Source of the DNA: a virus
Lineage: Duplodnaviria; Heunggongvirae; Uroviricota; Caudoviricetes
Virus record (IMG/VR): IMGVR_UViG_2541047807_000001
Location: 1-39,816 of that record
Length of the DNA: 39,816 nt
Direction: 5' to 3' (one strand)
Notes under the pieces: model-generated
Databases searched by the model: none
The model's input: the letters and a program-made list of their open reading frames with translations, nothing else
Told to the model about the DNA's origin: nothing
Shown: positions 14,624-34,655 of the stretch, one piece after another
Layout of the letters: every line of letters begins with the position of its first letter
Numbering within the stretch: position 1 is the stretch's first letter
Translations under genes and position numbers: made by a program

Positions 14624-14659
14624 AAACAAGGCCGCGAAAGCGGCCTGTGACATGTCACG

Positions 14660-15109
14660 CTACTTGCGAAATCTTTCTTTACCCTTCCAGCCAGTAGATG
14701 TTAGTTCAGGATGAATGGTTCCCAATATAAAGCCAACCATAGCGGAGCGAGGATCTTCTATTTTATCCGTTAATTCTTCGGCATAACTCACAGGCAACCA
14801 AGCAACAAGATCACCAATCCTCAGCTTTGGTCCTTTGCTGTAAGATGAATCGGCAATAACAAAAAATCCACCATCAGCTGAGCACACCTTCAGCATTGCC
14901 CTTTGTCTTCCAGAATCTAGCAAAACTGGCTGTTCCCCACTGGGACCAGGTATGATGATGGCTGGCATTGGTTTATTGGCTGAAAGGCTTGTGTCAAGAT
15001 ACTTACACGCATACTCAAAAGCTGAAAAGTTATCCTTAAAGATAAGAGGTTGAATTTTATTGCTAACCTCCTTACCACCGATTAATCTGTTGATCATCTT
15101 CTTGAACAT
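14660..15109 (-). CDS. Hypothetical protein (AT-rich accessory gene)
   Basis: ATG at 15109 with RBS aggtga; about 150 aa; opposite orientation to flanking accessory genes. Confidence 0.5.
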   Translation of the reverse strand: MFKKMINRLIGGKEVSNKIQPLIFKDNFSAFEYACKYLDTSLSANKPMPAIIIPGPSGEQPVLLDSGRQRAMLKVCSADGGFFVIADSSYSKGPKLRIGDLVAWLPVSYAEELTDKIEDPRSAMVGFILGTIHPELTSTGWKGKERFRK

Positions 15110-15121
15110 AAAGGTCACCTA

Positions 15122-15562
15122 ATGATTAAGCCGATGCACGCTATTACAGCTACCGTTTTGTTTATCCTACCAATTTTTTCGTTTGCAAACGACATATGTT
15201 TTAAGAATTTAATAAATGAGGATATGTGTGCACATGCAAACAAAATCGCATCAGAAGCAGGAAAGTCACTTCCCATAAAATTGAATGATAATATGTCTAT
15301 TGTTTCAATAAATGCAATACTAAACAAACTTTTAGTTGTAGCGCATCTTAATTACAACAACAGCTATTTATCAAAAGTTTATAATGGTGATATAACCTTA
15401 GAAAATAAATTAAAGAGTGTGATGCGAAATTATTCAAAATCGAGCATTTGCTCCAACAGGCAAATGAAAGCATTTATTCACCTTGGCGGAGAGATTGAGT
15501 ATAGGTATGTATTTAGTGATGGCAATATATTTGATACATACGCCATCACTAATTGTGAATAG
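15122..15562 (+). CDS. Hypothetical periplasmic or exported protein (AT-rich accessory gene)
   Basis: N-terminal hydrophobic signal-like segment ITATVLFILPIFSFA, four Cys, low-GC composition. Confidence 0.5.
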   Translation: MIKPMHAITATVLFILPIFSFANDICFKNLINEDMCAHANKIASEAGKSLPIKLNDNMSIVSINAILNKLLVVAHLNYNNSYLSKVYNGDITLENKLKSVMRNYSKSSICSNRQMKAFIHLGGEIEYRYVFSDGNIFDTYAITNCE

Positions 15563-18500
15563 CTATTTCATCTGCTCTTCAACTTTATTTAGTAACGGTG
15601 ATATCGCCCACAGGTTCTGAAAAGGTAGCATTTTACGGACCGCGTGGGTTTGCTGGCTGTCAAATTCTCCGTTAAGTACACCATTCGCAACCGTCGCGGC
15701 ATCACCGCCAAGATCAAAGGTAGGACCAAGTAAAGCACCAATAGCATTACGACTCTGAAACCTTGATACCGGAGGCGCACCAAACATCGCGCCAAGACCA
15801 AACCTACCGCCGCTTATGTTCTCAACGGTATTCAGCGGCTCAGAGAGCCAGCCAAGCATTCCGCCCCGGTCGATCCCCTCTTTCACAAGGTTATTCCAGC
15901 TGTAGTCGATATCGCGACCGCTTAACTTCTGTTTCATCATATATACCATTGAGCCAAGCGCAATCGTGCCAAGCGCACCAAGATAGAATGCAGCATCGCC
16001 CTGCTGGATACCAGATACCAGCACCCTGTTATGCTGTGCGAAGATAAACGTTTTGAACTGCGTGATCATCTTCCAGCCTTCTTTACTAAAAAACAGCGGT
16101 GTATCACCTACGCCAGGCGTTACAATCACTGAGTCTACATCTTTCAGCACTGCAGACTGGAAAATCTCTCTAGCGAAACGGTCATCCCACAGATGACTAT
16201 GCCCGGTTAACAGCCCGTCCATATCCTCTCCGTGCTTCCCGAATTGCTCCCCGATTCGGCGCAGAACATCTTCATTGATGCCGACCTGTGCCATCTTCCG
16301 CATTTCACTTTTGGAGAGCGTGCCACCAGCAGAAACTTGGCGAGCCGCGTCAAGTATCCTCGACTGCACTATCATCCCGGACCATGATTTAAGTGCGCTG
16401 TTCCACTGATTCATCAGCGTCCAGTTACCGAATTTCTGCGTCATCCAGTTCAGACCTCGCTCAGCGGCGCTTCTCCGGCTATAGGGGTCAGTAAGATCCG
16501 CTATAGCCTTTGTACGCGTAGACAGGACATAATCAAGCCCAACGGCCATTTCTCGCAAATCCCTAGTTGCAATTTTCACTGAGTCCATATTTTTAAGCAT
16601 GCTTACCATTGGTCCGAGAGATTTTCTCAGGCCATGCTGCATCATCGGTCGCATCAGATCAGTTGCAGCGGAGACAGTCATTCCACCAAGCAAACGGAGG
16701 AAGTTAATATTCCTAGCAACTCGCCCGGCACGAACAAAGAAACTGCGTGGATCTTGAGGTGCGCCGTAAGTACCAAGCAGTCGATCACGCATAGCCGTAA
16801 TATCCCTAATATCAGCCTCCCGTTGCTTCTCAAGAACTGCACGTCGTTTAGGTGTTTTAGCCTCTTTTATTAGCCGGGTATATTCCTCACTAACCTGACG
16901 GATTTGCTCCCCCATATCTTTACGGCCAAACTGCGCAGTCAGCTCAATTTCTGGTGCCACCTGCCGGAGATAACTTTCCATGATGTAGTTAACATCTGAT
17001 TCAAGAAAATCTTCTATACGCTCATCAGGAATAAGCAGCGTTCTGCTTTTAGTGAAACCAGCCCGACCAACGAGTCTCTCTGGGATAATATCGGCTGGTA
17101 CAAGCCCGGAAGGTGCGCCTATTATTTTATTCACGATCTCGTCAGCAGCGTCCTCTGCTTCCTCTCGGGATAGAGGCTCCATCTGCTTCAGTGCTCGTTC
17201 GCGGCTTGCATTCAGCCTTGTGGTTGAATTTGCCCGTTTTTGCAGTCGGCGAAGCTCAGAACGATATTTCCGTGGATTATCCAGCAACTCCATATGGCGC
17301 TGATAGACAGGAAGCTCACTCTTTGCCTGCGCTATATCATCAAGGCGTGTTTTAAGGTCAGAGCTTTCTTTCATCATTCTTGCCTGAAGTTTTTCTGATG
17401 AAGTCTCGGCCAACTCTTTTTCTATTCTTGTAAGACGCGCCTGTGTGTCAGTCTCCTGAGATATAAGCTTATTTCGTTTATCCAGTTCTTCCATGAGTAG
17501 AATTTTTTTACCAGACCATTTCTCCGCTTCAGCGATTTCACTAGCGAGAGCATCAGCGCGCGGTGCCGATTCCTCTGCAGTTTTTAGCAATGAATTTATC
17601 CTTTCAATTCGCTGACCTGCTTTGTCAGCACCTTTGGCACTAATCCCTTGTATCCAGTTGGCAATTCGCCCTCTGAATTCAGTGCGGTCGGAAAGTATCT
17701 TATCGAACTTATAAATGCGGGGAAGATAACTTTTCGCCGTCACGACATCGATATCCTCAGGAAGGATCCCCAGTTCCTGCATACGGGCTTTTGTGGTCTC
17801 GAAAATGGGGCGGATTCTGGCGGCTGCTTGTGAAACCTCAGGAATATCACTCTGATCACCACGGCGCATAGCCATGCCAACAGCTTCATTGAAATCAATA
17901 AAGTTCATCCTCTTCACGCCGCGGGCGCTAACAGATTTGCTGTACTGCTGGTAAGCATCACGAGTGGCTTCCATCTGCTTATAAAGCATGGCGTCGTATT
18001 GCTTAATCTTAGTCTCGACTGCCGTAAACGTAGCCAACCCCTCATCATTTTTGGCGAAGAAATAGTTATTTTCGGCAAGCTGCTGGTTAATCTGACGGGA
18101 GACAAGAGATGGTGATTGAGCCAAGCGGCCAGCAGGAGTGACACTCAACGTTTTGTTAGCAAGTCCAAGTCCAGCGAGCTGTTCCTGATCGAGTGTGGTA
18201 TTGAAAACCTGAGCTGCACCAATGCTTTGAGGAGAATCCATACCTCGCAAATGATTACCTACTGAGTTAACCACTGCCTCGCGCGCGCTAGGTCCAGCAA
18301 GTAGCTGTGCACCAGCACCAAGGATCCCACCAACGAGAGCATCAACAACAACGTTCGATACGCTCTCCATCGGTGAGCGAGCTTCCTGAGTGGCCTGTAA
18401 TGCGGCTTCTGATACTCCCCCACCAGCAGCATTCGCCAGGGCAAAACGCCCTGCCGTCTCAGCAATACTTCCTCCACGCGCTACCGCCCCTACAGGGATA

Positions 18501-18952
18501 AACATTGCAGCCACATTAACCGGGTCTATCATTCCCATTGCTAAGCTTGAAATAGTACCAGCACCACCCATTTCAGATAGATATTCTCTATCTGTTCTTT
18601 GCTTATCGATTCGATGTTTAATTGCCATTGTTTCTTCATGCGAACCGGAGTTGATAAACGAATCTGCAAAATCTTCATAGCCTTTAATATCTGCTGCATC
18701 GTTATCAAATGGGTTATATCCTTCAACCCTGTCAAACTGACTGAAAGGAGCACTGGCAATAAAGCTACCCAGCGTGTTATCTATACGAAATGCTGCTTGT
18801 CTAGACCTTTGAACGCGTTGATCACTGGTAAATGGGTTCACAGCAGAAAGCAAAGAAGGTGTTTCCATATAGAAATTACTGTCATCAGGTGCTGCTATTT
18901 GCTGAATATCCTCGCCAAGCAACTCTTTAGGATCCTGTTCATATATCGGCAT
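15563..18952 (-). CDS. Large internal virion / DNA-ejection protein (T7 gp16-like position)
   Basis: 1129 aa with a long coiled-coil central region, upstream of the tailspike in the structural operon. Confidence 0.55.
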   Translation of the reverse strand: MPIYEQDPKELLGEDIQQIAAPDDSNFYMETPSLLSAVNPFTSDQRVQRSRQAAFRIDNTLGSFIASAPFSQFDRVEGYNPFDNDAADIKGYEDFADSFINSGSHEETMAIKHRIDKQRTDREYLSEMGGAGTISSLAMGMIDPVNVAAMFIPVGAVARGGSIAETAGRFALANAAGGGVSEAALQATQEARSPMESVSNVVVDALVGGILGAGAQLLAGPSAREAVVNSVGNHLRGMDSPQSIGAAQVFNTTLDQEQLAGLGLANKTLSVTPAGRLAQSPSLVSRQINQQLAENNYFFAKNDEGLATFTAVETKIKQYDAMLYKQMEATRDAYQQYSKSVSARGVKRMNFIDFNEAVGMAMRRGDQSDIPEVSQAAARIRPIFETTKARMQELGILPEDIDVVTAKSYLPRIYKFDKILSDRTEFRGRIANWIQGISAKGADKAGQRIERINSLLKTAEESAPRADALASEIAEAEKWSGKKILLMEELDKRNKLISQETDTQARLTRIEKELAETSSEKLQARMMKESSDLKTRLDDIAQAKSELPVYQRHMELLDNPRKYRSELRRLQKRANSTTRLNASRERALKQMEPLSREEAEDAADEIVNKIIGAPSGLVPADIIPERLVGRAGFTKSRTLLIPDERIEDFLESDVNYIMESYLRQVAPEIELTAQFGRKDMGEQIRQVSEEYTRLIKEAKTPKRRAVLEKQREADIRDITAMRDRLLGTYGAPQDPRSFFVRAGRVARNINFLRLLGGMTVSAATDLMRPMMQHGLRKSLGPMVSMLKNMDSVKIATRDLREMAVGLDYVLSTRTKAIADLTDPYSRRSAAERGLNWMTQKFGNWTLMNQWNSALKSWSGMIVQSRILDAARQVSAGGTLSKSEMRKMAQVGINEDVLRRIGEQFGKHGEDMDGLLTGHSHLWDDRFAREIFQSAVLKDVDSVIVTPGVGDTPLFFSKEGWKMITQFKTFIFAQHNRVLVSGIQQGDAAFYLGALGTIALGSMVYMMKQKLSGRDIDYSWNNLVKEGIDRGGMLGWLSEPLNTVENISGGRFGLGAMFGAPPVSRFQSRNAIGALLGPTFDLGGDAATVANGVLNGEFDSQQTHAVRKMLPFQNLWAISPLLNKVEEQMK

Positions 18953-21699
18953 TATTTGCCCCCTGCGTATATATTGCTCGGAAGGTAATTGGCTGAACCA
19001 TAACCGAATGGTTTGGTCAGATCTGGAGGAGTATATCCATCTTTATTGCTGAACTGCGGCAGCGGATTGCCTTCTCTCCGCACTCTAGCCTCATCAACAC
19101 GTTGTTGCTGGAACTGAATGGTTTGCCTGTACATTGGAGATGTCAGCTGATCCGGCTTGAAACGAACAGGGAGACCATTTTCTCCAATATAATTTCTCGG
19201 TTCTATCGCTCCGTTTGCGTCAGGCTGTAAAACCATAACAGCATAACTCCTATCCCTTGCCGTAAGGCCATCAGAAACAAGTATTAAGTCCGTATCACTG
19301 CGAGGACCGCCAAAGGATTTTGATTTAAGCTCGCGTTTTTCCTGCTCCCACTGCCCCTGTATCCAGTTACCAGCACCATTATTTACTCCGTACAATGCCT
19401 CAGGTGCATACTTCATAACCTCTGCTTTGCCATTAACCGTAGAAACTCCCCAGGTGGTTCTGATCATGGCATTGGTCATTTTCTCAGCCTGTTCTGCATC
19501 GCCACCTGTCTGTACAAAGTTAGCATCGTAAATTGTCTGGTAATCTCGCTGATAGGCCGCATTTGATTTTCCTGGATCGGTAATATCCGGAGACCACGAA
19601 CCAAAGGAAGTCAGACTGCTGGCGTTATTTTGTGCAGCAGTTGCCCTCGCCGCGACATATTTTTTGTCTCGCATGGCAGTGGAAAGCATCTGTTTCATTC
19701 GGTCATCCTGTTGGAACACCTGGCTGTAAGCCATATCAACAGCCTTATCCTCCGGCACGCCAGCGCGGGAATAATCGTAAACCTTGCCGTAAAATGCCAT
19801 CGTACTTTTATCAAGTGTTGCCGCTGCCGCCGGATTATTATCGAATAACTGACCGTAGAATTTTGCCATCGGGACAACCAGCGCAGGATCTCTTGATGTT
19901 GCTCCACTGTTAAGCATTGTTTTAACCTGAGTTGGTATCATGCCGCTTTTAGTTGTGACGGTGACCAGTGTATTGATGCTCTGCGGATCAGATATGGAAA
20001 ACGAAGGCGCGATATCCTGCGCGAAATAACGGTCTACCGCTGCCTGATTGTTTTTGTCGTTCGGGTCCAGCGGGAAGTTATTTTGCATTGAAGACACGAA
20101 CCTGTTTCTTCCCTGCTGAATCTCCCACTCCCTATCCATCTCTTTAAATTTGGCCTGCATTTTCTCCCAGCGTTGCTGGTTAGCTGCAAATCCAGGAGCG
20201 TTTGGATCCTGTGGACGTAAACGTTCAAGAATGTCTTGTCGTCCTTCTGGAGTGAGGTCTTTAGCGGCACCAATGACACCTCCATATTGTATCTGCGCCT
20301 GCATATCCTTCCACTTCATAGCGCCAATGCGCGGACCATTGGCCCGGATAAAATCGTCCTCAGAAGGTAACTTCTCAGGTTTCAATCCTTCATCAAGGGC
20401 TGAATATGCATCTTTAACTACGGTGCTAAGCTGGTCCGCATACTGCTGGCGGTACTGATTTCTCAGCTCATTAGCCTGCCTCAATGCCTGTATTTGCATT
20501 TGAGGGCTCATAGCATCAAATGCCGCATTGCCCGTATAACGCTTAGGTGAATCAAGGTTAGTTAGACCAAGGGCTGCCGAGATACCAGTTTCAAGCTGTT
20601 CGGTGCTATAAGGCATACTGCCATTTTCGTGTTTAATAATCCCAGCACATAAAGCAGCTAGTGTCTTTGGGTTAGAGATATCAAGCTGATCATTCTCCCC
20701 AACACCAAGCTCACCACACAATGCCCTAATATAAGCATCAGTATTATTACCATCACTAGCCGGAGCATAGCGATTAACAATCTCGCTAACGGTGTCATAG
20801 CCTTGACGCTGGTAAGACAACATATTTTTACCCAACGCGCGGATTCCATGCTCAGGGGTAGCAAACGTTGCAAAACGTCCATCGCTACCGATCTGACCTT
20901 CCCACGGGTTAGATTTGCTCGCTTCAATATTACCAGGGTTATTATTACGTAAACCACGAGCATCCAATGAATTACCATGTGATATTGCACGACTCACACC
21001 ATCAAGATCCCCTGGCTCTCCATTAACCTGAAGAAACTCGTTGTATTTTTGAGCGATATTTCCTATCCATGCTTGCTGCCCCATTTGTTCCTTGAGCTGA
21101 GTTTTCTGCTGAACACGCCACTCATCAGGAAGCCCATGCGCATCAGCGTATTGATCAATAGATTCAAATCGCTGCTTGGCTAAATCGACAAATGCTTGGT
21201 TATCGCTATATAGCCCCGCAGACTGAGTGACAGCCAATGCATTTCCTGACAAATACGTTTGATCTTGGAATTGCTGAAACTGCCCAACTTCATATCGACG
21301 TGCCTGATTGTAATAAGACTGCATAGACTGCTGGAGTTGAAAGGATAATTTATTCCTTTCCTCACTTTCAGGAATTGAGCCTAATAATGCCTGAGCCCTT
21401 TCCTGCATATTTTTCATAACAGCGTCACTCTGACCAAGAGCGTTTTTACCCTGTTTAGAAATCAGCCCACTTTCAGGGTTGTTAATCTGGTCATCTGCAA
21501 ATTGGTTAAATTGCAGTAACGCCTCCTGGGCCATAGCAACATTCGCTTTCTGCCTGGCTTCACCATATGCCACCGCATACTGATCTGCGACATTCGCCAG
21601 CACCTGACCTGCTTGAGGAACATCGAAGATCTGAAAACCACCGGTTTGCACACCACGACTTTGCACCTGGCGTCCGGATGTAGTAGGAACAACAGGCAT
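18952..21699 (-). CDS. Internal virion / core protein (T7 gp15-like position)
   Basis: 915 aa structural-operon gene; contains a RGLRNNNPGNIEAS...W.G segment that may be a cell-wall-interacting domain. Confidence 0.55.
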   Translation of the reverse strand: MPVVPTTSGRQVQSRGVQTGGFQIFDVPQAGQVLANVADQYAVAYGEARQKANVAMAQEALLQFNQFADDQINNPESGLISKQGKNALGQSDAVMKNMQERAQALLGSIPESEERNKLSFQLQQSMQSYYNQARRYEVGQFQQFQDQTYLSGNALAVTQSAGLYSDNQAFVDLAKQRFESIDQYADAHGLPDEWRVQQKTQLKEQMGQQAWIGNIAQKYNEFLQVNGEPGDLDGVSRAISHGNSLDARGLRNNNPGNIEASKSNPWEGQIGSDGRFATFATPEHGIRALGKNMLSYQRQGYDTVSEIVNRYAPASDGNNTDAYIRALCGELGVGENDQLDISNPKTLAALCAGIIKHENGSMPYSTEQLETGISAALGLTNLDSPKRYTGNAAFDAMSPQMQIQALRQANELRNQYRQQYADQLSTVVKDAYSALDEGLKPEKLPSEDDFIRANGPRIGAMKWKDMQAQIQYGGVIGAAKDLTPEGRQDILERLRPQDPNAPGFAANQQRWEKMQAKFKEMDREWEIQQGRNRFVSSMQNNFPLDPNDKNNQAAVDRYFAQDIAPSFSISDPQSINTLVTVTTKSGMIPTQVKTMLNSGATSRDPALVVPMAKFYGQLFDNNPAAAATLDKSTMAFYGKVYDYSRAGVPEDKAVDMAYSQVFQQDDRMKQMLSTAMRDKKYVAARATAAQNNASSLTSFGSWSPDITDPGKSNAAYQRDYQTIYDANFVQTGGDAEQAEKMTNAMIRTTWGVSTVNGKAEVMKYAPEALYGVNNGAGNWIQGQWEQEKRELKSKSFGGPRSDTDLILVSDGLTARDRSYAVMVLQPDANGAIEPRNYIGENGLPVRFKPDQLTSPMYRQTIQFQQQRVDEARVRREGNPLPQFSNKDGYTPPDLTKPFGYGSANYLPSNIYAGGK

Positions 21700-26532: not shown

Positions 26533-26533
26533 C

Positions 26534-26971: not shown

Positions 26972-27022
26972 CTTCTTTCTCCATTAGTGGGTCTGTTACG
27001 ACCCACAGGTTAATAACAGGCG

Positions 27023-28015
27023 TTACACCACGCGGGCTTCTGTTTCCAGAAGCGCATCAGTTTCACGGATTGGTACACCACGGAATGAAGTCCACCACTC
27101 GCCTTCTGTCTCTTTTACGCTGATCGCCAGAGATGTTTTCTCCAGAGATTGCAGATCAAGAGCCTGGCCTACAGTGCGGTTCATGTAGAACACCGGGCGA
27201 CCCATGCCACGATTTGGAATGCGATGCAGTGCTTTAACCATCAACTTCGCAATATTTGCGGCAGAGGAAGGTTCTGAAAGATTGCTGACATCGATGTTTG
27301 CAATGCGAACAACATAACGCCAGTCACGCAGAGCAAGTCCGTTATCCCATTTGTAATGGGTGCGATAGCCTTCGTACTTGCCGCCATTAGCATCTTCCAG
27401 TGTCACCTGGCCTTTATCTTCCATTTGGATGCCAGCCTTCTGCCCTTTCGGGAAGATGCCATGCACGGTGTTTTCGCCCCACACCACTAACCAGATTGAG
27501 GTGTTATCTGTACCCGTGCCACCAGCATCAATGATGTTCTGAGCATTACCCGCAGACAGGCTGGAATAGCGGGAGGACAGTCCCATAAACTGCTGAGGGT
27601 TAACGCTGGAATCACCATAAAACAGCGTCTGCGCCATCTGCTGATTCATCGCTTCAATAAATGCGCGGTCTTCAGACAGGCGGAATTCGGCGGTATTGCC
27701 GTTCAGATCAGCCAGTGACTTATCGACTTCCGCATAGGTTTCCAGCATGCCAACGGAATCGGTTACCTGTACTGTGGTTGATTTGCTTGGCTGTACGCCA
27801 TAGTTCAGCAAACGCCAGGTAGCTGAAGGTAAACCAGAACGAATGGTGGTTCGGTGTCCGGTAGGAAGGTTCCCTTCGACAAAAGGCATATCCTGAAGGA
27901 TCGGGTTAGTTTGACCGAGAAGCTCGATAATCTTATCGACTTTCCCGTTTGGATCGACGCGCTTACCCCAGTCAGCCAGCGTTAGCGCAGTTAAGCCTTT
28001 AACAGCCATTGTCAT
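27023..28015 (-). CDS. Major capsid protein (HK97 fold inferred)
   Basis: 330 aa, downstream of the scaffold gene; size and position typical of a major capsid protein. Confidence 0.7.
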   Translation of the reverse strand: MTMAVKGLTALTLADWGKRVDPNGKVDKIIELLGQTNPILQDMPFVEGNLPTGHRTTIRSGLPSATWRLLNYGVQPSKSTTVQVTDSVGMLETYAEVDKSLADLNGNTAEFRLSEDRAFIEAMNQQMAQTLFYGDSSVNPQQFMGLSSRYSSLSAGNAQNIIDAGGTGTDNTSIWLVVWGENTVHGIFPKGQKAGIQMEDKGQVTLEDANGGKYEGYRTHYKWDNGLALRDWRYVVRIANIDVSNLSEPSSAANIAKLMVKALHRIPNRGMGRPVFYMNRTVGQALDLQSLEKTSLAISVKETEGEWWTSFRGVPIRETDALLETEARVV

Positions 28016-28023
28016 TTCCTCTC

Positions 28024-28719
28024 TTATTTGCCATAGAGCACTTCGGCCGCACTACGCTGGCCTTCATTACCACCGGTGACCATGCCATCTTCAGACATCG
28101 CCTTTCCGATTTTCACGAACGTTTTGACCAGATCAGGGTGATTACCCAGTCCGGTGGTGTTCAGATATTCTTTGAGTTCAGGTGTCCCGAACTGGTCAAG
28201 CGCACGCTGTGCGGCGCTAAGGTTAGAAATCAACTTGTCGCCACCGATTTCTTTGTCAGCTTTTACATCCGCAGCCCACTGCTCGGTTGTTTTCTGCCAG
28301 GCTTCTGCCTGGCGCTGCTGAACACCTGCCAGAATCTTCGGATAAGCATCAACCAGCTTTTGCGCTTGCTCGTTGGTCAGGTTAAGTTCTCGCGCCACCG
28401 GCTCGAATTCCTTCAACGCTTCTGTATCCAGCTCTACGCCTTCGGCAGCCTGAAACTCGTACTTCTCAGGCGCACCCTCTGGTTTATCGCCGTCCTTTTT
28501 TTCATCCTGCTTATCGTTTTCAGGCTTTTTGTCATCAGCAGGTTTATCGCCATCAGCAACAGGTTGTGGCTTATCACCTTCCAGTTGTGATGGATCACCA
28601 ACTGGAGCAGGGTTATCACCTGCAGGCGCTGACGGTTCTGACGCAGCCGGAGCTGCTCCGCCATCAACTGGTTGCTCATTGCAAAGACGGCGATACAGCA
28701 AACGCTCAAATAAATTCAT
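28024..28719 (-). CDS. Scaffolding protein
   Basis: Acidic, Pro/Asp/Lys-rich low-complexity N-terminal half and helical C-terminal half, between portal and capsid. RBS GGAG before ATG 28719. Confidence 0.6.
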   Translation of the reverse strand: MNLFERLLYRRLCNEQPVDGGAAPAASEPSAPAGDNPAPVGDPSQLEGDKPQPVADGDKPADDKKPENDKQDEKKDGDKPEGAPEKYEFQAAEGVELDTEALKEFEPVARELNLTNEQAQKLVDAYPKILAGVQQRQAEAWQKTTEQWAADVKADKEIGGDKLISNLSAAQRALDQFGTPELKEYLNTTGLGNHPDLVKTFVKIGKAMSEDGMVTGGNEGQRSAAEVLYGK

Positions 28720-28721
28720 AA

Positions 28722-29018
28722 TCACTCCTGTTCACTGGCCTCTTTGGCCATCTTCAAATACTGTTCAGGGCAATGCGCCATAACGCGCTGAAACAGTTCA
28801 AGCGCCAGATTGCGTTGCCCCTCATTAAATGCCATTGCCATAGCGTCCATCGGTGAGATAGCGGAAAACACACGGCCTTTCTCCAGCACCGACCAGACAA
28901 CGCGCCGCCCCTGTTCACTGCTCATGACAAAGCGAATGTCATCAATTTCACGCTGCGCCATGTCACGTTGCTTACGGGCGTTTTCTTCTTTCAGTTGATC
29001 GTCTTCGTAATCTGTCAT
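28722..29018 (-). CDS. Hypothetical protein
   Basis: 98-aa ORF coupled between the portal and scaffold genes. Confidence 0.45.
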   Translation of the reverse strand: MTDYEDDQLKEENARKQRDMAQREIDDIRFVMSSEQGRRVVWSVLEKGRVFSAISPMDAMAMAFNEGQRNLALELFQRVMAHCPEQYLKMAKEASEQE

Positions 29019-30694
29019 TGTGATTGCCCACCCTGACCACTAACTGCATTCGCCATAGCTGACAAAACACTCGGATCCGAAGTTTTAGCTTCGCTTAGCG
29101 TCTTGGCGCCCTGTGCCGCCGCCATCCCCATCGCCATCATTTGTTGCTGCTGTTGCTGCTGTGCCCGTTGCTGGCGAGCCTGCTCAACCTGTTCCTGCGG
29201 AACAATGACGGTTGGAGACACTCCGGACATATCAGCGAATGCATCGATCGCCTGATCAACGTTGAGTTTGTCGAGAGCTTCTGGTTTCGCTTGCGCAAGT
29301 TGACCAATGAAGTTGACCGTGGATGCCAGACTGGACAGGCCGATAGACTTCTGCGCCTGAGCCATGACGGAAATGTATTCGACCTTCAGGGGCATACCTT
29401 CCATCACGTCTGGCGGTGGCGGCAGCATGTTTTTACGCACCATCATCGAGAAAGAGCGATCAATGAGAGGATTAAGACATTCGTCGTTCAGGCGCTCCAG
29501 AACCGGCCCCAACATCAGAAGTTTTTCTTCTTTCATTTCGATCACCGCTTCAACAGGCATCGAGCGGGTATTGATGTTCTGCAACATCATGAACAGATCG
29601 ACAAAGTAGGCGCTGTTAATGATTTGACGAGTGTCCTGAATGTCTGCTACCAAATCTGCTGTACTGGGGTTAACCAGATAAGCAGGCCTGAAGCCATCCT
29701 GACCAGTAATCTGATCGATATACGTGATGTCGCCAGGAAGAAGGGAGGCGCGCTGATTCTTGAGGGAAGTCGGAGCAACCATCGGCGGATTGGTTGCTTT
29801 ATCAATCAACTGCGACTTGCGCTTCTGGAGAAGCTGCAATGCCTTAACAGGTCCAAGCGCCAGCATACCCGGGCATGATGATCCATAAACATCTTCGCCG
29901 TTAACTTCCCAGCGCGGAGCCATAATTGGAAACTCATCGAATCCGGACTCACGCAACAACTTGTCGTTATCGCCACCAACCTCGTAATAAACCGATTTGA
30001 ATGGCTTGTTCTTGCTATCCAGCTTCGATGTATCGCGGTCAATGTTCGGGTAAACCGAATGCATCACTTCAATCCACTTCTCGTAGGTGCCGCTTTCCCA
30101 CATGCTTTTTACGGATTCGCTGACGTTATTTAGCCCGAACTCCTGAACAAGCTGACGAACAGTCATAGAGAACTTGCGAAAACAGGTGTCCACACTGCCA
30201 CGAGGTGAGTTAGCCAGGTAGTAACTGCCTATCGGGAATGGCATTGTGCGAATGATGTCCTCGTCATCCTCCAGCACTGCCATTGCACCAGTGCTGTATG
30301 TGCCGAGGCTTCCGTATAACTGCGGCAGCGACTGATAGAGATTCGACTTATTGAACATATCGTTCATGCGGTTCTGCACGGCCTCAAGCCACAACTTAAC
30401 AGGGCCATAATCCATCATTTCAGGATCTGGCGTAGCCAGGCGAAACCACGGACGCGCGGGGCTTGTGATGCCTGACATCATGCCGCTGGCGAGAGTGCGC
30501 GCCGCCATAGTCCCGGTCGAATCAATAATGCGTGTATTGCGTCGATCGTTACGGTTGACCTCAGAAGTCAGAAAGCGGGAACCACGCGGGTTGATGTAAT
30601 CACTCAACTCGCGCCAGTGCGGCTCGAACGACTGACGCTCGCTTTCAAGTTGTGCGAACTGTTTGTTCAATCGCTCTTTAGTTGTTTCCGCCAT
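29015..30694 (-). CDS. Portal protein (podovirus head-to-tail connector type)
   Basis: 559 aa, N-terminus MAETTKERLNKQFAQLESERQSFEPHWRELSDYINP, Gln-rich C-terminal tail; size and position fit a portal. Confidence 0.8.
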   Translation of the reverse strand: MAETTKERLNKQFAQLESERQSFEPHWRELSDYINPRGSRFLTSEVNRNDRRNTRIIDSTGTMAARTLASGMMSGITSPARPWFRLATPDPEMMDYGPVKLWLEAVQNRMNDMFNKSNLYQSLPQLYGSLGTYSTGAMAVLEDDEDIIRTMPFPIGSYYLANSPRGSVDTCFRKFSMTVRQLVQEFGLNNVSESVKSMWESGTYEKWIEVMHSVYPNIDRDTSKLDSKNKPFKSVYYEVGGDNDKLLRESGFDEFPIMAPRWEVNGEDVYGSSCPGMLALGPVKALQLLQKRKSQLIDKATNPPMVAPTSLKNQRASLLPGDITYIDQITGQDGFRPAYLVNPSTADLVADIQDTRQIINSAYFVDLFMMLQNINTRSMPVEAVIEMKEEKLLMLGPVLERLNDECLNPLIDRSFSMMVRKNMLPPPPDVMEGMPLKVEYISVMAQAQKSIGLSSLASTVNFIGQLAQAKPEALDKLNVDQAIDAFADMSGVSPTVIVPQEQVEQARQQRAQQQQQQQMMAMGMAAAQGAKTLSEAKTSDPSVLSAMANAVSGQGGQSQ

Positions 30695-30708
30695 TTCAAT
30701 GACTCCGG

Positions 30709-30915
30709 TTACTGACCAAGTAGCGTTTTACCGCTGGTATTAGCGGTTGATGTGTCGCCCTGAGAACCGGTAAGCAGCGTAGAACTACGACCAGCAGCAG
30801 CGCGACGGCGACGTGTTTCTTCGTCGCGGGCATCAACAACAGCGGCATCCTGCTCCTGTGGTGCTGCCTGAACTTCTGGTGTTGCAGGCACTGATGGTGA
30901 GCTACCCATGCACAT
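30709..30915 (-). CDS. Small hypothetical protein upstream of the portal
   Basis: 68-aa low-complexity ORF with SD GGAG about 9 nt upstream. Confidence 0.3.
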   Translation of the reverse strand: MCMGSSPSVPATPEVQAAPQEQDAAVVDARDEETRRRRAAAGRSSTLLTGSQGDTSTANTSGKTLLGQ

Positions 30916-30983
30916 ATCAATGACTCCGTACGCAATTAAATTATTACCAATTTAACCACATATGATTTATTTATCGTAGATAG

Positions 30984-31020
30984 TTGACATTTAACGCACG
31001 AATTATTACCTTTCAGGTAA
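30984..31020 (+). promoter_or_regulatory. Promoter-like element with overlapping repressor operator
   Basis: TTGACA (30984-30989), 17-nt spacer, weak -10 TACCTT overlapping TTACCtttcaGGTAA (31006-31020). Reads toward the leader, tRNA and moron gene. Confidence 0.4.
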
Positions 31021-31342
31021 GCAAAGAGTTCATTCCGGTTATTAACCTGACTGGCTTGTCGTTAAATTGAACAGGTGGAGTGAGCTTTTATTTTGAGCAG
31101 TACGGCGTATGGCACATGCGCCGATAGCGGTCTGGATACGTTTAAGGGGCACCCTCCCTTGCTCGGGCAAACGAACCAGGTAGCCGGAATGTGCAAGTCG
31201 AGCGGTTTTATTCCGCGCACGGGGATTCACCATCCCGGCGATTCGGTGTGACGCCTCGGAAGAGACGAGGGTACAACGATGAGAGCATTTATGGAGCCGC
31301 GACAAAGTGTGGCGCCTTAACAGGCTAAGTGCTCTCAGCGTT

Positions 31343-31419
31343 GTGGCATTAGCTCAGTTGGACAGAGCAACCGCCTTCTAAGCGGTTGGTTGCAGGTTCG
31401 AATCCTGCATGCCACGCCA
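31343..31419 (+). tRNA. tRNA-Arg (anticodon TCT)
   Basis: Hand-folded cloverleaf: acceptor GTGGCAT/ATGCCAC, D-stem GCTC/GAGC, anticodon stem ACCGC/GCGGT with loop CTTCTAA, T-stem GCAGG/CCTGC with loop TTCGAAT, 3' GCCA. 77 nt. Confidence 0.85.
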
Positions 31420-31462
31420 GAATCACGCCTAAGGACCGTGATGCCAGAAGTTCCAGGTGCTT

Positions 31463-31506
31463 GGCGGTGATGGTTTCCCTTGAAGGACTATCACCGCCCT
31501 TTTTAC
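31463..31506 (+). terminator. Terminator-like hairpin after the tRNA
   Basis: ggcggtgatggtttcccttgaaggactatcaccgcc stem-loop followed by ctttttac. Confidence 0.45.
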
Positions 31507-31582
31507 AGCAGGACGCCATTGCGATGACTTCATGCTGTAAACCAGTACAGCCACGGAAGGCATAACTCATTGCTTCCAGTTC

Positions 31583-31606
31583 GCCCGGTTCGCCGGGCAT
31601 TTTTTT
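31583..31606 (+). terminator. Intrinsic terminator / attenuator-like hairpin immediately upstream of the moron RBS
   Basis: gcccgg-ttcg-ccgggc hairpin followed by at plus seven T, ending about 11 nt before ATG 31618 with only the RBS aaggtgag between. Confidence 0.5.
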
Positions 31607-31617
31607 AAGGTGAGATC

Positions 31618-32037
31618 ATGAAGACAATTGATATGTTGGCTAAGTATCTAAATGAATGGCCATTAAAATATTCTCGTATCGTTCAGGCTGAAGACTGCAT
31701 TTTTTATGGCGTTTTTGCTGGTAATGAAATGCATTACGAAGTAATTCAGAGTGAGGGACTGGCCGGGTTAACTCTTAGCGAAGACCATGGTACTAGCGTT
31801 ACGTTCCATGACTGGATAACAGCACAACGTTATGAAATGGAAAAAGGCGATGTGTTTGATATTTCTCGATCTGTTTACGCTAAAGCAAAAAGTGATAATG
31901 ATTACATGAGCGAACACTTATACAACATGAAGTTACAATGCCTGCATGCGGCGCTTATTCAGAATGGGCACTTCGATAAAACAAGTGCCATCAATATTGC
32001 GGAAGCCATCAACGCTGGATTTAATGCCATTAAGTAA
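31618..32037 (+). CDS. Hypothetical moron protein (AT-rich, opposite orientation inside the late operon)
   Basis: 139-aa ORF with RBS aaggtgag; AT-rich; followed by a palindrome and terminator. Confidence 0.55.
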   Translation: MKTIDMLAKYLNEWPLKYSRIVQAEDCIFYGVFAGNEMHYEVIQSEGLAGLTLSEDHGTSVTFHDWITAQRYEMEKGDVFDISRSVYAKAKSDNDYMSEHLYNMKLQCLHAALIQNGHFDKTSAINIAEAINAGFNAIK

Positions 32038-32057
32038 CACCGTGACATGTCACAAAC

Positions 32058-32084
32058 AGCCAGCCGATGAGCTGGCTTTGTTTT
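32058..32084. terminator. Bidirectional rho-independent terminator between the moron and large terminase
   Basis: agccagc-cgatga-gctggct hairpin flanked by AAA on one side and TTTGTTTT on the other. Confidence 0.55.
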
Positions 32085-32127
32085 ATCCTCATCAGAGGAT
32101 ATCAACGACATTATCCCCACCAGCGGA

Positions 32128-33603
32128 TTAAGCATAGGGATCGTAATCTGTGATGGCCTTGCCTTGCTGGTTCTGCTGCCCGGGAATTCGCAGACGCTTC
32201 GACACAGGGAACGCAAACGTCAGCAGTAGCGCATCGCCTTTACCCGGCGAACGCCCAAGCCGCTCCTTGATATCTTCCTTCGGTTCGATAACGATTTTAC
32301 CGTCCACGCGAACTTTGTACTCTGCCGCCGACAGGTCGTCTGCTGTTTCCTGGTCATCCAGCATGCCGCCCAGCCTCAGCCATGTCTTGCATGAATTGAA
32401 CATCTCCCCACGCTTGTTAAGCATCTGCGGGTCAGTAGACGCGCCACCGAACGGAACAAGTTGCCATGTACGACCCCAGCCATCACCGATTGACTTCAGA
32501 CCAGTTCCGTAACCGAAGTCGATGAACACTGCGTCAGCCTGGTACTGGTCTTCAAAGTCAGCGATACGCTTCGCCATAATCAGATCGTCGGTAGTCTTGT
32601 TGCCAGTCCACAGCACCTTACTGTGTAGCCCCTGCCGTAGGTATATCACCGCGTCATCAACGCCTGAATATGCCGGGTCAACACCGATTATCACCGGAGC
32701 ATGCGCCACCTGCGCAGCGGTTACCACCCGTTTCATTGCCTCATCAGTAAGACCGGTAGGGATAAACTGCAATTCAGATGCATCAGGGAATATGCCGCGC
32801 ACACGGATTTTAACGAAGTCGCTGTCTTCCCCGTAGTCATCAACCCATTTCTGCAACTGCTGTTTGTTAGTGCCTTCCACCGTCCGGCTGTCAATCTGCG
32901 CAGTTTTCCAGCGGTGTTTATATTTGCGGAAACATTCGCGGAAACGCCCGGTGTTACGTGTAGGGTTTCCGAACGCCACCCAGATAATCTCAGTGTCTTC
33001 GTCCGTAAGCGCACCCTCAGCAACTTCCCACACCAGATCCGCAATGTTCGACGCTTCATCGAATACCACGATGATGCGTTTGCGCTCGTTGTGTAGTCCG
33101 GCAAATGCCTCAGTGTTGTGCTCAGACCAGGGGATTGCGTCAGCTCGCCAACGCTTGTCGTGCCCAGGGTCATTGCTGTACATCGCGGTAGCGGTACAGG
33201 TAAACCAGTCTTTCGTGATAGCAAGGTTCGACCACTTGATAATTTCCGGCCAGGTCTTCGTTCGTAGCTGGTTGTCGGTGTTGGCAGTCACCACGACCTT
33301 ACAATCCTCGCAAGTGGACATGCCCCAGTTGATCAACATTGAGATGAATGCTGATTTACCAATACCGTGACCCGAAGCACGTGCCAGCATAAGCGGCTGA
33401 TAGCGCGTCTCGGGATTCTGCAGGTGATCACGTATCTCTCGGAACGCATCAGCCTGCCACTGACGTGGGCCGGTAGCATGTGCCAGTTCAGTCCCCTCTT
33501 CCCCCCACGGGAACGCATAGAGGGAATAGCCAAGCGGATCGTGAGTGAACCCTGCAATATCCTCGATCAATTGCTCTTCAGGAGATAACGCTGTATCTGT
33601 CAC
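32128..33603 (-). CDS. Terminase large subunit
   Basis: 491 aa. Walker A-like GHGIGKS near the N-terminus with VVFDEASNI (Walker B-like), and a C-terminal nuclease-like region. Follows the small terminase with overlapping start. Confidence 0.85.
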   Translation of the reverse strand: MTDTALSPEEQLIEDIAGFTHDPLGYSLYAFPWGEEGTELAHATGPRQWQADAFREIRDHLQNPETRYQPLMLARASGHGIGKSAFISMLINWGMSTCEDCKVVVTANTDNQLRTKTWPEIIKWSNLAITKDWFTCTATAMYSNDPGHDKRWRADAIPWSEHNTEAFAGLHNERKRIIVVFDEASNIADLVWEVAEGALTDEDTEIIWVAFGNPTRNTGRFRECFRKYKHRWKTAQIDSRTVEGTNKQQLQKWVDDYGEDSDFVKIRVRGIFPDASELQFIPTGLTDEAMKRVVTAAQVAHAPVIIGVDPAYSGVDDAVIYLRQGLHSKVLWTGNKTTDDLIMAKRIADFEDQYQADAVFIDFGYGTGLKSIGDGWGRTWQLVPFGGASTDPQMLNKRGEMFNSCKTWLRLGGMLDDQETADDLSAAEYKVRVDGKIVIEPKEDIKERLGRSPGKGDALLLTFAFPVSKRLRIPGQQNQQGKAITDYDPYA

Positions 33604-34196
33604 TGATTGCCATCCTGACGTTCTTTCAGTCTCTTCCTGGCTGCCGCTATGCGATCAGCAATTGTCACATTCACATTAACATCCAGGCGTTCTTTGAATG
33701 CATTGACATCGACGTGCTTACCAATCAGCTCAAGGTTCTTCACCTTGTCAGGCCATTTAATTTTTTTGAGGATTGTCTCTATCGAATCCTCGTTCATGTT
33801 CATGATGGTCGATGACAGATCAAAGCCGCTAAGCGTAGTGCGCCAGATTTTCGGCCACTCGCGGATTGGCTTAAGGCTCCCATCGTCGTTGAGGATGTCG
33901 ATCACGTCCATCTGGTCGATCTCCACCAGGCGCATGAGAACGTAATCAGCACTGACGCGCATTCGTTTGTTGCGCTCCTCCATCAACTCGGCAATCCGTT
34001 TTTGAATGCGTTCATCGCGCATCATGACACTGGCTTTAACTGCCGCTGTATTTGGGGAGAATCCTGCATTAATCGCTGCCTGAGTCTGGTTTTCAGGCGT
34101 TTTGATGTATGACTGGCAATAAGCCTCCTGCATTGCTGTTAGTGGCTTAAATTGCGTTGATTTGCGTTTATAGGTTTTAGGTTCAGCAGGCATCAT
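33600..34196 (-). CDS. Terminase small subunit
   Basis: MPAEPKTYKRKSTQFKPLTAMQEAYCQSYIKTPENQTQAAINAGFSPNTAAVKAS is a small-terminase N-terminal pattern. Start ATG at 34196 or 34193; the longer ORF-track start includes 5' UTR repeats. Confidence 0.65.
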   Translation of the reverse strand: MMPAEPKTYKRKSTQFKPLTAMQEAYCQSYIKTPENQTQAAINAGFSPNTAAVKASVMMRDERIQKRIAELMEERNKRMRVSADYVLMRLVEIDQMDVIDILNDDGSLKPIREWPKIWRTTLSGFDLSSTIMNMNEDSIETILKKIKWPDKVKNLELIGKHVDVNAFKERLDVNVNVTIADRIAAARKRLKERQDGNQ

Positions 34197-34313
34197 AACC
34201 ACCGTGGTAATAGTTACCGTTGTGGTAATAGTACCATGCAAAATAAAGCCGCCATAGTTGGCGGCAGTATTCAAAACCATCAAATTCATCATGCATAATC
34301 TACTCGTGACATG

Positions 34314-34655
34314 TCACACTATTAATTTCGTTTCATGCCAGCCTTTAGTCACCCAGCATTGCGAGTCACCATTACACGGGCATGAATTAACGGGAACTCT
34401 CTCGCCGCACTTACCGCAACATTTTCTGCTGATCGATTTTATACGCCCGCGCACGCGTGCATCATCCTGGCGGATCAGTAACGCTATATACTCACCAAAT
34501 TCGTAAGGCGCACGCCCGGGGCGACGCGTGGCACAGTTACGCTCCAGCATTTCAATTTCCTGAGCATCAAGCACAATTTCCAGCTTACGCACACCAGATG
34601 CAGCTTGTCTGGCTCTCTGAGCGGCTTTGCGCTCTGCTGCTGATTTAGCCATCAA
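34314..34655 (-). CDS. Hypothetical protein with Cys-rich C-terminus
   Basis: 113 aa ending in CCGKCGERVPVNSCPCNGDSQC; last gene before the late operon. Confidence 0.45.
   Translation of the reverse strand: MMAKSAAERKAAQRARQAASGVRKLEIVLDAQEIEMLERNCATRRPGRAPYEFGEYIALLIRQDDARVRGRIKSISRKCCGKCGERVPVNSCPCNGDSQCWVTKGWHETKLIV

What the first reader, a model, noticed from the sequence alone, without database searches (positions are those of the whole stretch)
14647..34317. Perfect 12-bp palindrome GTGACATGTCAC present three times, each at a gene or module boundary
Exact copies at 14647-14658, 32042-32053 and 34306-34317. Each lies within a few nt of a stop codon at a junction: end of the accessory island, end of the tRNA/moron island, and the boundary between early genes and the terminase operon (overlapping the stop of 34314..34655). 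Three exact copies of a 12-mer in 40 kb are far beyond chance. The spacing (GTGA-N4-TCAC) does not fit CRP. Candidates are a site for a phage DNA-binding protein, a modular recombination linker that delimits morons, or a structured RNA element at 3' ends.
Basis: seen in the sequence. Interest (0 to 1): 0.65.

Follow-up and report, generated by a model that had tools for sequence, protein, structure and literature searches.

The report
Phage regulator's conserved 12-bp binding sites
The three identical 12-bp palindromes are real and are almost certainly docking sites for a small, uncharacterised DNA-binding protein whose gene ends inside one of them; the same protein-plus-site pair recurs in several unrelated families of temperate phages.

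Summary
GTGACATGTCAC occurs exactly three times (14647, 32042, 34306), against 0.02 expected. The window is an epsilon15/phiV10-like (Uetakevirus) E. coli phage.

The 12-mer is invariant at the same three syntenic positions in relatives from E. coli, Salmonella and Enterobacter, while the flanks diverge.

Site A contains the TGA stop of a 112-aa ORF (34314-34652, minus strand; PHROG 536). The predicted fold is ribbon-helix-helix plus a Cys4 knuckle. Homologues at 30-40% identity occur in N15-like, P2-like Yersinia and Vibrio phages and in 78 Enterobacterales prophages. They carry GTGAC-N2-GTCAC at or beside their own stop codon, plus one to four dispersed copies. Across 4.26 Mb of related loci there are 435 N2 sites, against 13 or fewer for any other spacing. 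This ORF is the only window ORF shared by all these phage types.

The sites are therefore best read as operators of this protein. That is inferred, not shown.

In this phage each site lies 1-40 nt upstream of an intrinsic terminator at a boundary of the late operon, so I favour control of transcription across those boundaries. An architectural matS/parS-like role is a close rival. The site is one base shorter than E. coli matS, so it does not match the matS or CRP consensus. An RNA element is unlikely.

The parts
34306..34317 (.). Site A: GTGACATGTCAC. It contains the TGA stop of the regulator gene and lies 40 nt upstream of terminator tA and the terS leader.
   Evidence: In 78 diverse prophages the site is on or beside the homologue's stop: 37 overlap it exactly and 57 lie within -30..+300 nt. 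It overlaps the stop in 49/49 N15-like loci.
32042..32053 (.). Site B: GTGACATGTCAC. It lies between the stop of moron ORF 31618..32037(+) and the terminator that follows terL.
   Evidence: It is present in about 50 of 80 close relatives; some others carry single-base variants.
14647..14658 (.). Site C: GTGACATGTCAC at the 3' end of the structural-gene operon, 0-1 nt upstream of terminator tC (the scan extends the tC stem to 14646, directly abutting the site at 14647).
   Evidence: Site plus terminator form a conserved island of about 60 nt between variable flanks.
34314..34652 (-). Gene for a 112-aa protein (PHROG 536, 'transcriptional regulator'). It has an N-terminal basic helix, a predicted ribbon-helix-helix and a C-terminal CxxC-x8-C-x7-C knuckle. 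It is the proposed binder of the sites.
34240..34265 (-). Intrinsic terminator tA (GCCGCCAACTATGGCGGC followed by TTTATTTT), between the regulator gene and terS.
   Evidence: A terminator at this position is conserved in Tyrion, VB_ST_E15 and the Uetakevirus-like group whose tail protein is 57-62% identical.
32058..32085 (+). Terminator tB. Its T-run is strong on the + strand. On the - strand it follows the terL stop and has only a weak T-run.
14621..14646 (-). Intrinsic terminator tC (AGGCCGCTTTCGCGGCCT followed by TGTTTTT) at the end of the late structural operon.
   Evidence: It is annotated as a terminator in phiV10.
34288..34317 (-). Weak sigma-70-like match (GTGACA, 18-nt spacer, CATGAT) whose -35 hexamer is the first half of site A.
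   Evidence: This is a consensus match only (9 of 12 positions) and its function is not shown.
33600..34196 (-). terS (Terminase_2), the first late gene downstream of site A and tA. Its likely start is ATGATGCCT at 34196.
   Evidence: Tyrion annotation.

Best explanation
The three 12-mers are the cognate DNA sites (operators) of the phage's own 112-aa ribbon-helix-helix/Zn-knuckle protein, encoded at 34314-34652(-).

The protein is expected to bind double-stranded DNA as a dimer or a pair of dimers. It would read the two invariant GTGAC arms, which are 7 bp apart centre to centre. The variable central dinucleotide differs between clades.

Gene and site travel together as a unit, with one site fused to the gene's stop codon. 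A few further identical copies are kept elsewhere in each genome.

In this phage every copy lies 1-40 nt upstream, in the terminator's own direction, of an intrinsic terminator. These terminators mark three boundaries: the early/late junction (tA, before terS), the terL/moron junction (tB) and the end of the structural operon (tC). I therefore propose that the bound protein controls whether RNA polymerase crosses these boundaries. It could do so as a Q-like factor that is tethered to DNA and handed to polymerase at the terminator. Alternatively it could act as a roadblock or insulator that reinforces the boundary and, at its own stop codon, limits its own synthesis.

Shown: the repeats, their conservation, the gene-site linkage, the strict N2 spacing, the adjacency to terminators and the RHH-like model.
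Inferred: binding itself, the stoichiometry, and any effect on transcription or its sign.

I put binding by this protein at about 0.8, and a transcription-boundary role given binding at about 0.5. The stated confidence of 0.42 is for the whole statement, including the transcriptional role.
For: 1. The 12-mer is invariant at three syntenic positions in E. coli, Enterobacter and Salmonella Uetakeviruses despite divergent flanks. Klebsiella BUCT711 keeps sites A and C but lacks B and has a coding-region copy instead.
2. GTGAC-N2-GTCAC sits on or next to the stop codon of the homologue in four settings: the P2-like Yersinia phage, N15, 49/49 N15-like contigs and 57/78 diverse Enterobacterales prophages. 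In those three sets of fetched loci, observed versus expected site counts are 110 vs 0.87, 95 vs 1.37 and 173 vs 1.47.
3. Spacing is strict: 435 N2 sites against 13 or fewer for N0, N1 and N3-N10.
4. The ORF is the only window ORF with homologues in all the site-bearing phage types. Tail-protein-anchored, and so independently chosen, Uetakevirus-like loci almost all encode it with an adjacent site. The most distant locus has neither.
5. Site columns show zero variation while the flanks vary, including wobble positions inside N15 repA.
7. Terminators lie next to all three sites. Family-wide, 24.7% of 332 non-redundant sites lie within 60 nt 5' of a terminator-like hairpin, against 2.7% of random positions. 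Only 5.7% lie 3' of one.
8. Tandem sites 22 bp apart, followed by a terminator and the terS leader, occur in a sister lineage.
Against: - No binding experiment exists, and no paper mentions these sequences.
- Conserved sites inside coding regions or mid-operon fit poorly with a pure boundary or roadblock role. Examples are N15 repA, a Klebsiella-type virion gene, and an intergenic site inside the structural operon of the group whose tail protein is 57-62% identical.
- In the late direction, site B lies after its terminator hairpin rather than before it.
- In N15, P2-like and lambdoid hosts other late regulators (Q, Ogr) exist, and the gene is not always next to late genes.
- Sites are related by descent, so the terminator statistics rest on few independent events.
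- An Aeromonas homologue has no such site.
Confidence: 0.42

Rival explanations
1. Same protein and same sites, but the role is architectural rather than transcriptional. A few identical high-affinity 'address' sites would be bridged or clustered by the protein, in the manner of MatP-matS, ParB-parS or KorB-OB. This would organise, pair or position phage DNA, or set topological domain borders.
For: - The sites are identical to each other rather than graded in affinity. The number per genome (2-5) is kept while positions turn over. For example, Klebsiella phage BUCT711 lacks site B but has a conserved copy inside a virion gene.
- Copies inside coding DNA are under DNA-level selection.
- One copy lies at the binder's own gene, as is common for parS (own knowledge).
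- The arms are identical to those of matS.
- MatP is among the structural neighbours, with the longest alignment.
- The orientation of N15's asymmetric centre does not track the direction of transcription.
Against: - There is no detectable homology to MatP (hhalign E 0.42).
- No partner ATPase is annotated in phiV10, TL-2011b or Tyrion.
- Nothing shows a bridging or oligomerisation domain.
- The strong 5'-of-terminator bias and the tandem arrays at the gene-proximal locus look regulatory.
- The benefit of such a role to an integrating phage is unclear.
Confidence: 0.28
2. The palindromes are conserved 'linker' sequences at module junctions. They would serve as short homologies or protein-stimulated hotspots for exchanging morons and modules between phages.
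For: All three sites lie beside variable DNA: the accessory island, the moron/tRNA island and the nin-like region. Homology with relatives often breaks within about 25 nt of them. Different morons, such as a umuD-like gene with a LexA box, are inserted directly after site A in relatives.
Against: - Breakpoints are equally frequent at many other gene boundaries.
- 12 bp is too short for efficient homologous exchange (own knowledge).
- Sites inside coding regions and in N15 repA are not junctions.
- The family-wide coupling to one protein's stop codon is not explained by this model.
Confidence: 0.08
3. The sites are bound by a host factor: MatP tolerating a 12-bp site, or a CRP/FNR-type protein.
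For: The arms are identical to matS. The phages that carry the site infect Enterobacterales and Vibrio, which have MatP (own knowledge). Vibrio phage K308 also has one site matching the matS consensus.
Against: - The spacer is strictly N2. N3, the matS spacing, occurs once against 435 N2 sites.
- Prophages avoid matS (PMC3603311).
- CRP needs TGTGA-N6-TCACA.
- A host-factor site would not be expected to co-migrate with one phage gene across unrelated phage backbones.
Confidence: 0.06
4. Site A is a packaging (pac) recognition or cleavage site for the P1-PacB-like terminase, and sites B and C are secondary copies.
For: Site A lies just upstream of terS here, and a copy lies 18 nt upstream of terS in Vibrio K308. 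The phiV10 and Tyrion database records are opened inside site A, and Tyrion's record is opened exactly at the dyad.
Against: The same site family occurs in the cos phages N15 and P2-like phages, far from cos. Three cleavage sites per genome would fragment it. Record starts may be a convention. The terminase is not shared across the site-bearing phages.
Confidence: 0.04
5. The element acts as RNA: a small hairpin in 3' UTRs just before terminator hairpins, serving for processing, stability or protein binding.
For: The sites lie preferentially between a stop codon and a terminator, so they are transcribed. The protein has a Zn knuckle, a motif that can bind RNA (own knowledge).
Against: - The hairpin is worth only -1.2 kcal/mol and is no better than shuffles.
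- The invariant C5 and G8 cannot pair across a 2-nt loop, while the centre is the variable part. That is the pattern of a double-stranded DNA site.
- Some sites are in coding DNA.
- Orientation is irrelevant.
Confidence: 0.03

Closest known systems
MatP-matS of E. coli and Vibrio (Ter macrodomain organiser)
   Different: The spacer is 2 nt rather than 3, and strictly so. There is no detectable sequence homology to MatP. The phage protein lacks MatP's four-helix bundle and coiled coil and has a Cys4 knuckle instead. The sites are on phage genomes, and one is fused to the binder's own gene.
Lambda-type Q / QBE / tR' late antitermination module
   Same: A small DNA-binding protein that probably binds Zn is encoded as the last early gene. 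Its DNA site comes immediately after the gene, followed by a strong intrinsic terminator and then the late genes. This comparison rests on my own knowledge of lambda Q.
   Different: - There is no homology to Q families.
- The promoter at the site is only a weak consensus match.
- Further copies lie at other terminators and inside genes.
- The same family coexists with genuine Q (N15 gp40) or Ogr in other phages.
Omega repressor of pSM19035 and other RHH operator systems (Arc, Mnt, CopG)
   Same: In these systems RHH dimers read short subsites about 7 bp apart that contain TCAC/GTGA cores (omega heptad WATCACW; own knowledge). Tandem, helically phased arrays occur at the main locus.
   Different: Omega, Arc and Mnt sites lie in promoters upstream of the regulated genes and vary between copies. 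Here the sites are identical, lie downstream of the gene, and often lie just before terminators. The protein also has an extra Zn knuckle.
LacI-O3 operator at the 3' end of lacI
   Same: In both cases an operator overlaps the 3' end of the binder's own gene. A roadblocked polymerase would then yield transcripts without a stop codon, giving negative feedback (own knowledge: Abo et al. 2000).
   Different: The protein family is unrelated. The effect is untested here. In this family the overlap is conserved across many phage lineages.
KorB-OB (RK2) and ParB-parS
   Same: A mobile element carries a handful of identical palindromes bound by its own protein. Some are at promoters, some are far from any promoter, and one is near the binder's gene (own knowledge).
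   Different: There is no ParB/KorB homology. No CTPase or ParA partner is annotated in phiV10, TL-2011b or Tyrion. The protein is much smaller.

Membership tests
matS (MatP binding site) | 13-bp consensus GTGAC[AG]N[TC]GTCAC | tested here: not met
   The site is 12 bp, GTGAC-AT-GTCAC. The consensus was taken from PMC3603311 and PMC8669397. Across 4.26 Mb of related loci the N3 spacing occurs once, against 435 N2 sites.
matS (MatP binding site) | Bound by MatP or by a MatP homologue | tested here: inconclusive
CRP/FNR-type site | TGTGA-N6-TCACA (or TTGAT-N4-ATCAA) geometry, which places GTGA and TCAC 6 nt apart | tested here: not met
   GTGA and TCAC are 4 nt apart in all three copies.
Ribbon-helix-helix (MetJ/Arc/CopG) DNA-binding proteins (for the proposed binder) | Strand-helix-helix fold forming an antiparallel beta-ribbon dimer | tested here: inconclusive
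Ribbon-helix-helix (MetJ/Arc/CopG) DNA-binding proteins (for the proposed binder) | Significant match to an RHH sequence family | tested here: not met
   Only sub-threshold hits were found: PF10723 RepB-RCR_reg at E 0.034 in one Vibrio homologue and NCBIfam 'LexA regulated protein' at E 0.052. Pfam returned nothing significant for the window protein.
Lambda-type Q antitermination module | Regulator gene, then its DNA site, then a terminator, then late genes, in that order | tested here: met
   The order here is 34652-34314 (gene), 34317-34306 (site), 34265-34240 (terminator) and terS from 34196. The same order is found in Tyrion, VB_ST_E15 and a sister lineage.
Lambda-type Q antitermination module | Site embedded in an active late promoter with a promoter-proximal pause; protein homologous to a Q family | tested here: not met
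   Only a 9/12 consensus promoter match was found. There is no Q-family hit. Promoter activity and pausing cannot be tested with these tools.
Intrinsic terminator | GC-rich hairpin followed by a T-run | tested here: not met
   This was tested for the palindrome itself, whose RNA hairpin is worth -1.2 kcal/mol with z about 0 and has no T-run. The neighbouring elements do meet the definition.
Plasmid/phage partition centromere with an RHH centromere-binding protein (type Ib/II) | Adjacent ParA/ParM-type NTPase gene; centromere made of repeated sites next to the operon | tested here: not met
   No partition ATPase is annotated in phiV10, TL-2011b or Tyrion. The sites are single and dispersed. N15 has its own SopAB system, and Vibrio K308 has a ParA-like gene 1.6 kb from one site.
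Module-boundary 'linker' sequences of mosaic phages | Homology breakpoints concentrated at the element compared with other boundaries | tested here: inconclusive
   Breakpoints involve 24-46 subject loci at sites A, B and C, but up to 98 at other gene boundaries. Conserved copies inside genes argue against membership.

The most novel reading that the evidence does not exclude
The pair is a phage-borne counterpart of MatP-matS. A small RHH protein would recognise 'matS minus one base' tags scattered on the phage chromosome and bridge or position that DNA, or shield it from host Ter-macrodomain machinery such as MatP, MukBEF and ZapB. The 1-bp shorter spacer would keep the tags invisible to host MatP. 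This would explain four things: the identical arms, the strict N2 spacing, the avoidance of true matS in prophages, and the restriction to phages of Enterobacterales and Vibrio.
Probability: 0.12. Interest if true: 0.85.

Novelty: new variant of a known kind. Interest (0 to 1): 0.6.

Why it matters
If binding is confirmed, this defines a previously undescribed regulator-operator pair: PHROG 536 with GTGAC-N2-GTCAC. The pair is shared by epsilon15-like podophages, N15/phiKO2-like phage-plasmids, P2-like Yersinia myophages, Vibrio phages and many Enterobacterales prophages.

It would give a function to a widespread 'hypothetical' gene. It would also point to the still unknown control of late-operon transcription in Uetakeviruses. 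It supplies a compact, orthogonal 12-bp operator with a 112-aa binder for engineering. Finally, it raises a testable question about why its site is one base away from the host's matS.

The conserved fusion of an operator to the binder's own stop codon is unusual in itself. It suggests either feedback through roadblocked transcripts or selection for inseparable linkage in mosaic genomes.

Tried and rejected
- **Chance:** rejected.
- **CRP:** rejected on spacing.
- **matS identity:** rejected on length and on family-wide spacing statistics.
- **MatP homology:** hhalign was negative.
- **Family assignment of the protein by sequence:** Pfam, NCBIfam, PDB hmmsearch and PADLOC gave nothing significant.
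- **Fold searches:** Foldseek against the PDB and BFVD was uninformative. The afdb50 library was unavailable.
- **Literature:** none of the 12-mers appears in any held paper in a phage or bacterial context; two of the variants turn up only in two unrelated mammalian-biology papers. The epsilon15 and phiKO2 genome papers are not held. The ZX5 paper concerns the repressor and antirepressor only.
they have no homologues in the other site-bearing phages.
- **Late activator at a promoter downstream of each site:** plausible only for site A, because B and C have no sensible downstream promoter.
- **RNA hairpin:** too weak.
- **Covariation between the beta-strand and the central dinucleotide:** a pattern exists, but it is confounded with phylogeny.


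Full report
**1. The observation**

GTGACATGTCAC occurs exactly three times in the window, at 14647-14658, 32042-32053 and 34306-34317. Dinucleotide-preserving shuffles give a mean of 0.02 copies and never three. Allowing two mismatches adds one chance-level match. It is the only palindrome of 10 or 12 nt that is repeated in the window.

**2. Context**

The window is an epsilon15/phiV10-like (Uetakevirus) temperate podophage of E. coli. Its first 25-95 nt repeat at 39746-39816, so it is a circular genome with a small overlap.

Late genes run on the minus strand, in this order (synteny with phiV10):
- the last early-right gene (34652-34314);
- site A;
- terminator tA (34265-34240);
- terS and terL;
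- terminator tB and site B;
- a moron/tRNA island;
- portal and structural genes;
- ORF 15118-14660;
- site C;
- terminator tC (14646-14621);
- an opposite-strand accessory island;
- tailspike and lysis genes.

A consensus scan finds an intrinsic terminator beside each site. In every case the palindrome lies on the 5' side of the terminator in the direction in which that terminator has its T-run. The gaps are 40 nt at A, 4 nt at B (plus strand) and 0-1 nt at C.

**3. Conservation**

The same 12-mer sits at the same three syntenic places in HEMP4, Enterobacter phage Tyrion and Salmonella phage VB_ST_E15. Their flanks are about 80% identical or unalignable. phiV10 has B and C, plus A with one mismatch split across its record ends. 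TL-2011b has A and C.

In 80 close IMG/VR relatives, site A is present in 75 and B in about 50. Some others have single-base variants of B.

In tail-protein-anchored loci, which were chosen without reference to the site, positions turn over:
- Klebsiella-type genomes often lack B but keep an invariant copy inside an internal-virion-protein gene.
- A lineage whose tail protein is 57-62% identical has a tandem pair 22 bp apart after the regulator gene, plus a copy in a 26-nt intergenic gap inside the structural operon.

Terminator or junction placement therefore holds in this phage but is not universal.

**4. The link to one protein**

Site A contains the stop codon of a 112-aa ORF. PHROG 536 calls it a 'transcriptional regulator', and it has no Pfam family. 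tblastn finds homologues at 30-41% identity in P2-like Yersinia phages, N15 (gp46), phiKO2 (gp45), many Vibrio phages and Aeromonas phages.

- In the Yersinia phage and in N15, a GTGAC-N2-GTCAC palindrome again overlaps the homologue's TGA as G|TGA|C. The centres are GC and TG respectively. N15 has two more copies with the same centre.
- All 49 N15-like IMG/VR contigs show the stop-codon copy, a copy inside repA and often a third: 110 sites against 0.87 expected.
- Inside repA, the 12 columns are invariant in 18 distinct sequences while the neighbouring wobble positions vary.
- Vibrio phage K308 has three N2 sites, one of them 18 nt before terS.
- In 78 prophages from one-genome-per-species Enterobacterales, the site overlaps the stop in 37 and lies within -30..+300 nt of it in 57: 95 sites against 1.37 expected.
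- Over all 213 loci (4.26 Mb), N2 spacing occurs 435 times in 209 loci. No other spacing from N0 to N10 exceeds 13, and the reversed arm order is essentially absent, with 0-5 occurrences at each spacing.
- This ORF is the only window ORF with homologues in all the other site-bearing phage types.

This phylogenetic-profile and linkage evidence is the basis for assigning the sites to this protein. Binding itself is an inference.

**5. The protein**

The alignment shows an invariant basic N-terminal segment (R8, K9, Q12, R13), a strand-helix-helix pattern, and four invariant cysteines in the pattern CxxC-x8-C-x7-C.

Sequence methods do not reach significance, and Foldseek found nothing. RHH is therefore likely but not established.

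The family is small, with 152 clusters at 50% identity among 1.84 billion representatives. It is found in phages and phage-plasmids of Enterobacterales and Vibrio. The central dinucleotide follows the clade, and hence the beta-strand sequence: AT, GC and TG. This is confounded with phylogeny.

**6. What the site is not**

- It is not matS. The consensus is the 13-bp GTGAC[AG]N[TC]GTCAC (PMC3603311, PMC8669397), while this family is strictly N2. The protein shows no detectable homology to MatP.
- It is not a CRP site, on spacing.
- It is not a meaningful RNA hairpin (-1.2 kcal/mol, z about 0). Moreover, the invariant inner arm bases could not pair across a 2-nt loop, whereas arms-invariant with centre-variable is the signature of a double-stranded DNA site.
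- It matches no model in the PADLOC defence-system library.

**7. Mechanism**

I commit to the following: the 12-mers are operators of the RHH/Zn-knuckle protein (about 0.8).

For the downstream role I favour control of transcription across operon boundaries (about 0.5 given binding), for four reasons:
- In this phage all three copies sit just upstream of terminators.
- Family-wide, 24.7% of 332 non-redundant sites lie within 60 nt 5' of a terminator-like hairpin, against 2.7% of random positions. Only 5.7% lie 3' of one. The bias also holds for sites far from the gene, at 53 versus 13 of 189.
- The main locus has the layout gene, then site(s), then terminator, then late genes, which recalls lambda Q-QBE-tR'.
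- Tandem, helically phased sites occur there in a sister lineage.

Whether the protein promotes read-through or reinforces the boundary cannot be decided here. In the first case it would be handed from DNA to polymerase at the terminator. In the second it would act as a roadblock or insulator, with feedback at its own stop codon as for LacI-O3.

Four points weigh against a purely transcriptional role: copies inside genes and mid-operon, turnover of positions with a conserved copy number, the sites being identical to each other, and the coexistence of the family with Q or Ogr in other phages. These features fit the architectural, matS/parS/OB-like rival, to which I give 0.28.

The recombination-linker idea has weak support, because breakpoints occur at the sites but also at many other boundaries. 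A pac-site role is unlikely given the cos phages in the family. However, the Tyrion record is opened exactly at the dyad of site A, which deserves a PhageTerm check.

**8. Novelty**

I found no description of these sequences or of this protein's function. The kind of system, a phage-encoded sequence-specific binder with dispersed palindromic operators, is well known. The new elements are:
- this particular pair;
- its RHH-plus-Cys4 architecture;
- the conserved fusion of one operator to the binder's stop codon;
- its spread across unrelated phage backbones;
- its one-base distance from matS.

I rate it a new variant of a known kind and moderately interesting (0.6). The decisive experiments are simple.

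Noticed in passing
window 34206-34235 (- strand): There are two direct copies of a near-palindromic 12-mer, GGTA(C/A)TATTACC, 5 nt apart, between terminator tA and the terS start. They are conserved in phiV10, Tyrion and VB_ST_E15. In a sister lineage the equivalent arms flank the terS Shine-Dalgarno sequence. This may be a second operator, a TerS/pac element or a translational hairpin.
   Followed up: partly
window 1-210 and 39746-39816: Window 25-95 is repeated at 39746-39816, so the window is a circular genome with an overlap. At 58-210 there is an iteron-like array of six 24/18-nt repeats (ATCCCGTTTTTGGGATCATTCAAC), preceded by TGGTTAWATGAC twice. This is a candidate origin or operator region.
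   Followed up: partly
window 31343-31419 (+): A tRNA-Arg(tct) gene lies in the island between terL and the portal gene. It is overlapped by the mechanical ORF call 31349..31600(-).
   Followed up: no
window 13797-14369 (+): This ORF has a YafO-toxin domain (Pfam E 9e-6) and lies in the accessory island next to site C.
   Followed up: no
L141 (Klebsiella phage BUCT711) about 360-430; L215; L228, L231, L232 just after the homologue's stop: A umuD-like moron with its own promoter and a perfect LexA box (CTGT-N8-ACAG) is inserted directly after site A in some relatives. In Serratia and Symbiopectobacterium prophages a LexA box directly follows the homologue's stop in place of the palindrome.
   Followed up: no
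L088 (Vibrio phage K308) 19491: Besides three N2 sites, this phage has one site that fits the true matS consensus (GTGACACCGTCAC). It is the only N3 site in 4.26 Mb of related loci.
   Followed up: no
L089 (Aeromonas phage 14AhydR10PP) 25963, 29348, 29628: The most divergent homologue-bearing phage has no GTGAC-N2-GTCAC site, but it has GGTGATCACC three times. This may be a diverged cognate site.
   Followed up: no
L190, L191, L194 about 790-830; L088 33268: An extra half-site within 'GTCACACAG' recurs a few nt to 29 nt downstream of the gene-proximal site. It appears both in the Uetakevirus-like group whose tail protein is 57-62% identical and in Vibrio K308.
   Followed up: no
L004 (Tyrion) record ends; L001 (phiV10) record ends: The Tyrion record is opened exactly at the dyad of site A (GTGACA|TGTCAC), and the phiV10 record is opened 4 nt into it, where the site carries one mismatch. 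This may be an annotation convention or a physical DNA end. It was not resolved.
   Followed up: partly
window 37620: There is a single GTGAC-N5-GTCAC match. Across all related loci only 4 sites have this spacing, equal to the chance expectation of about 4, so it is probably chance.
   Followed up: no
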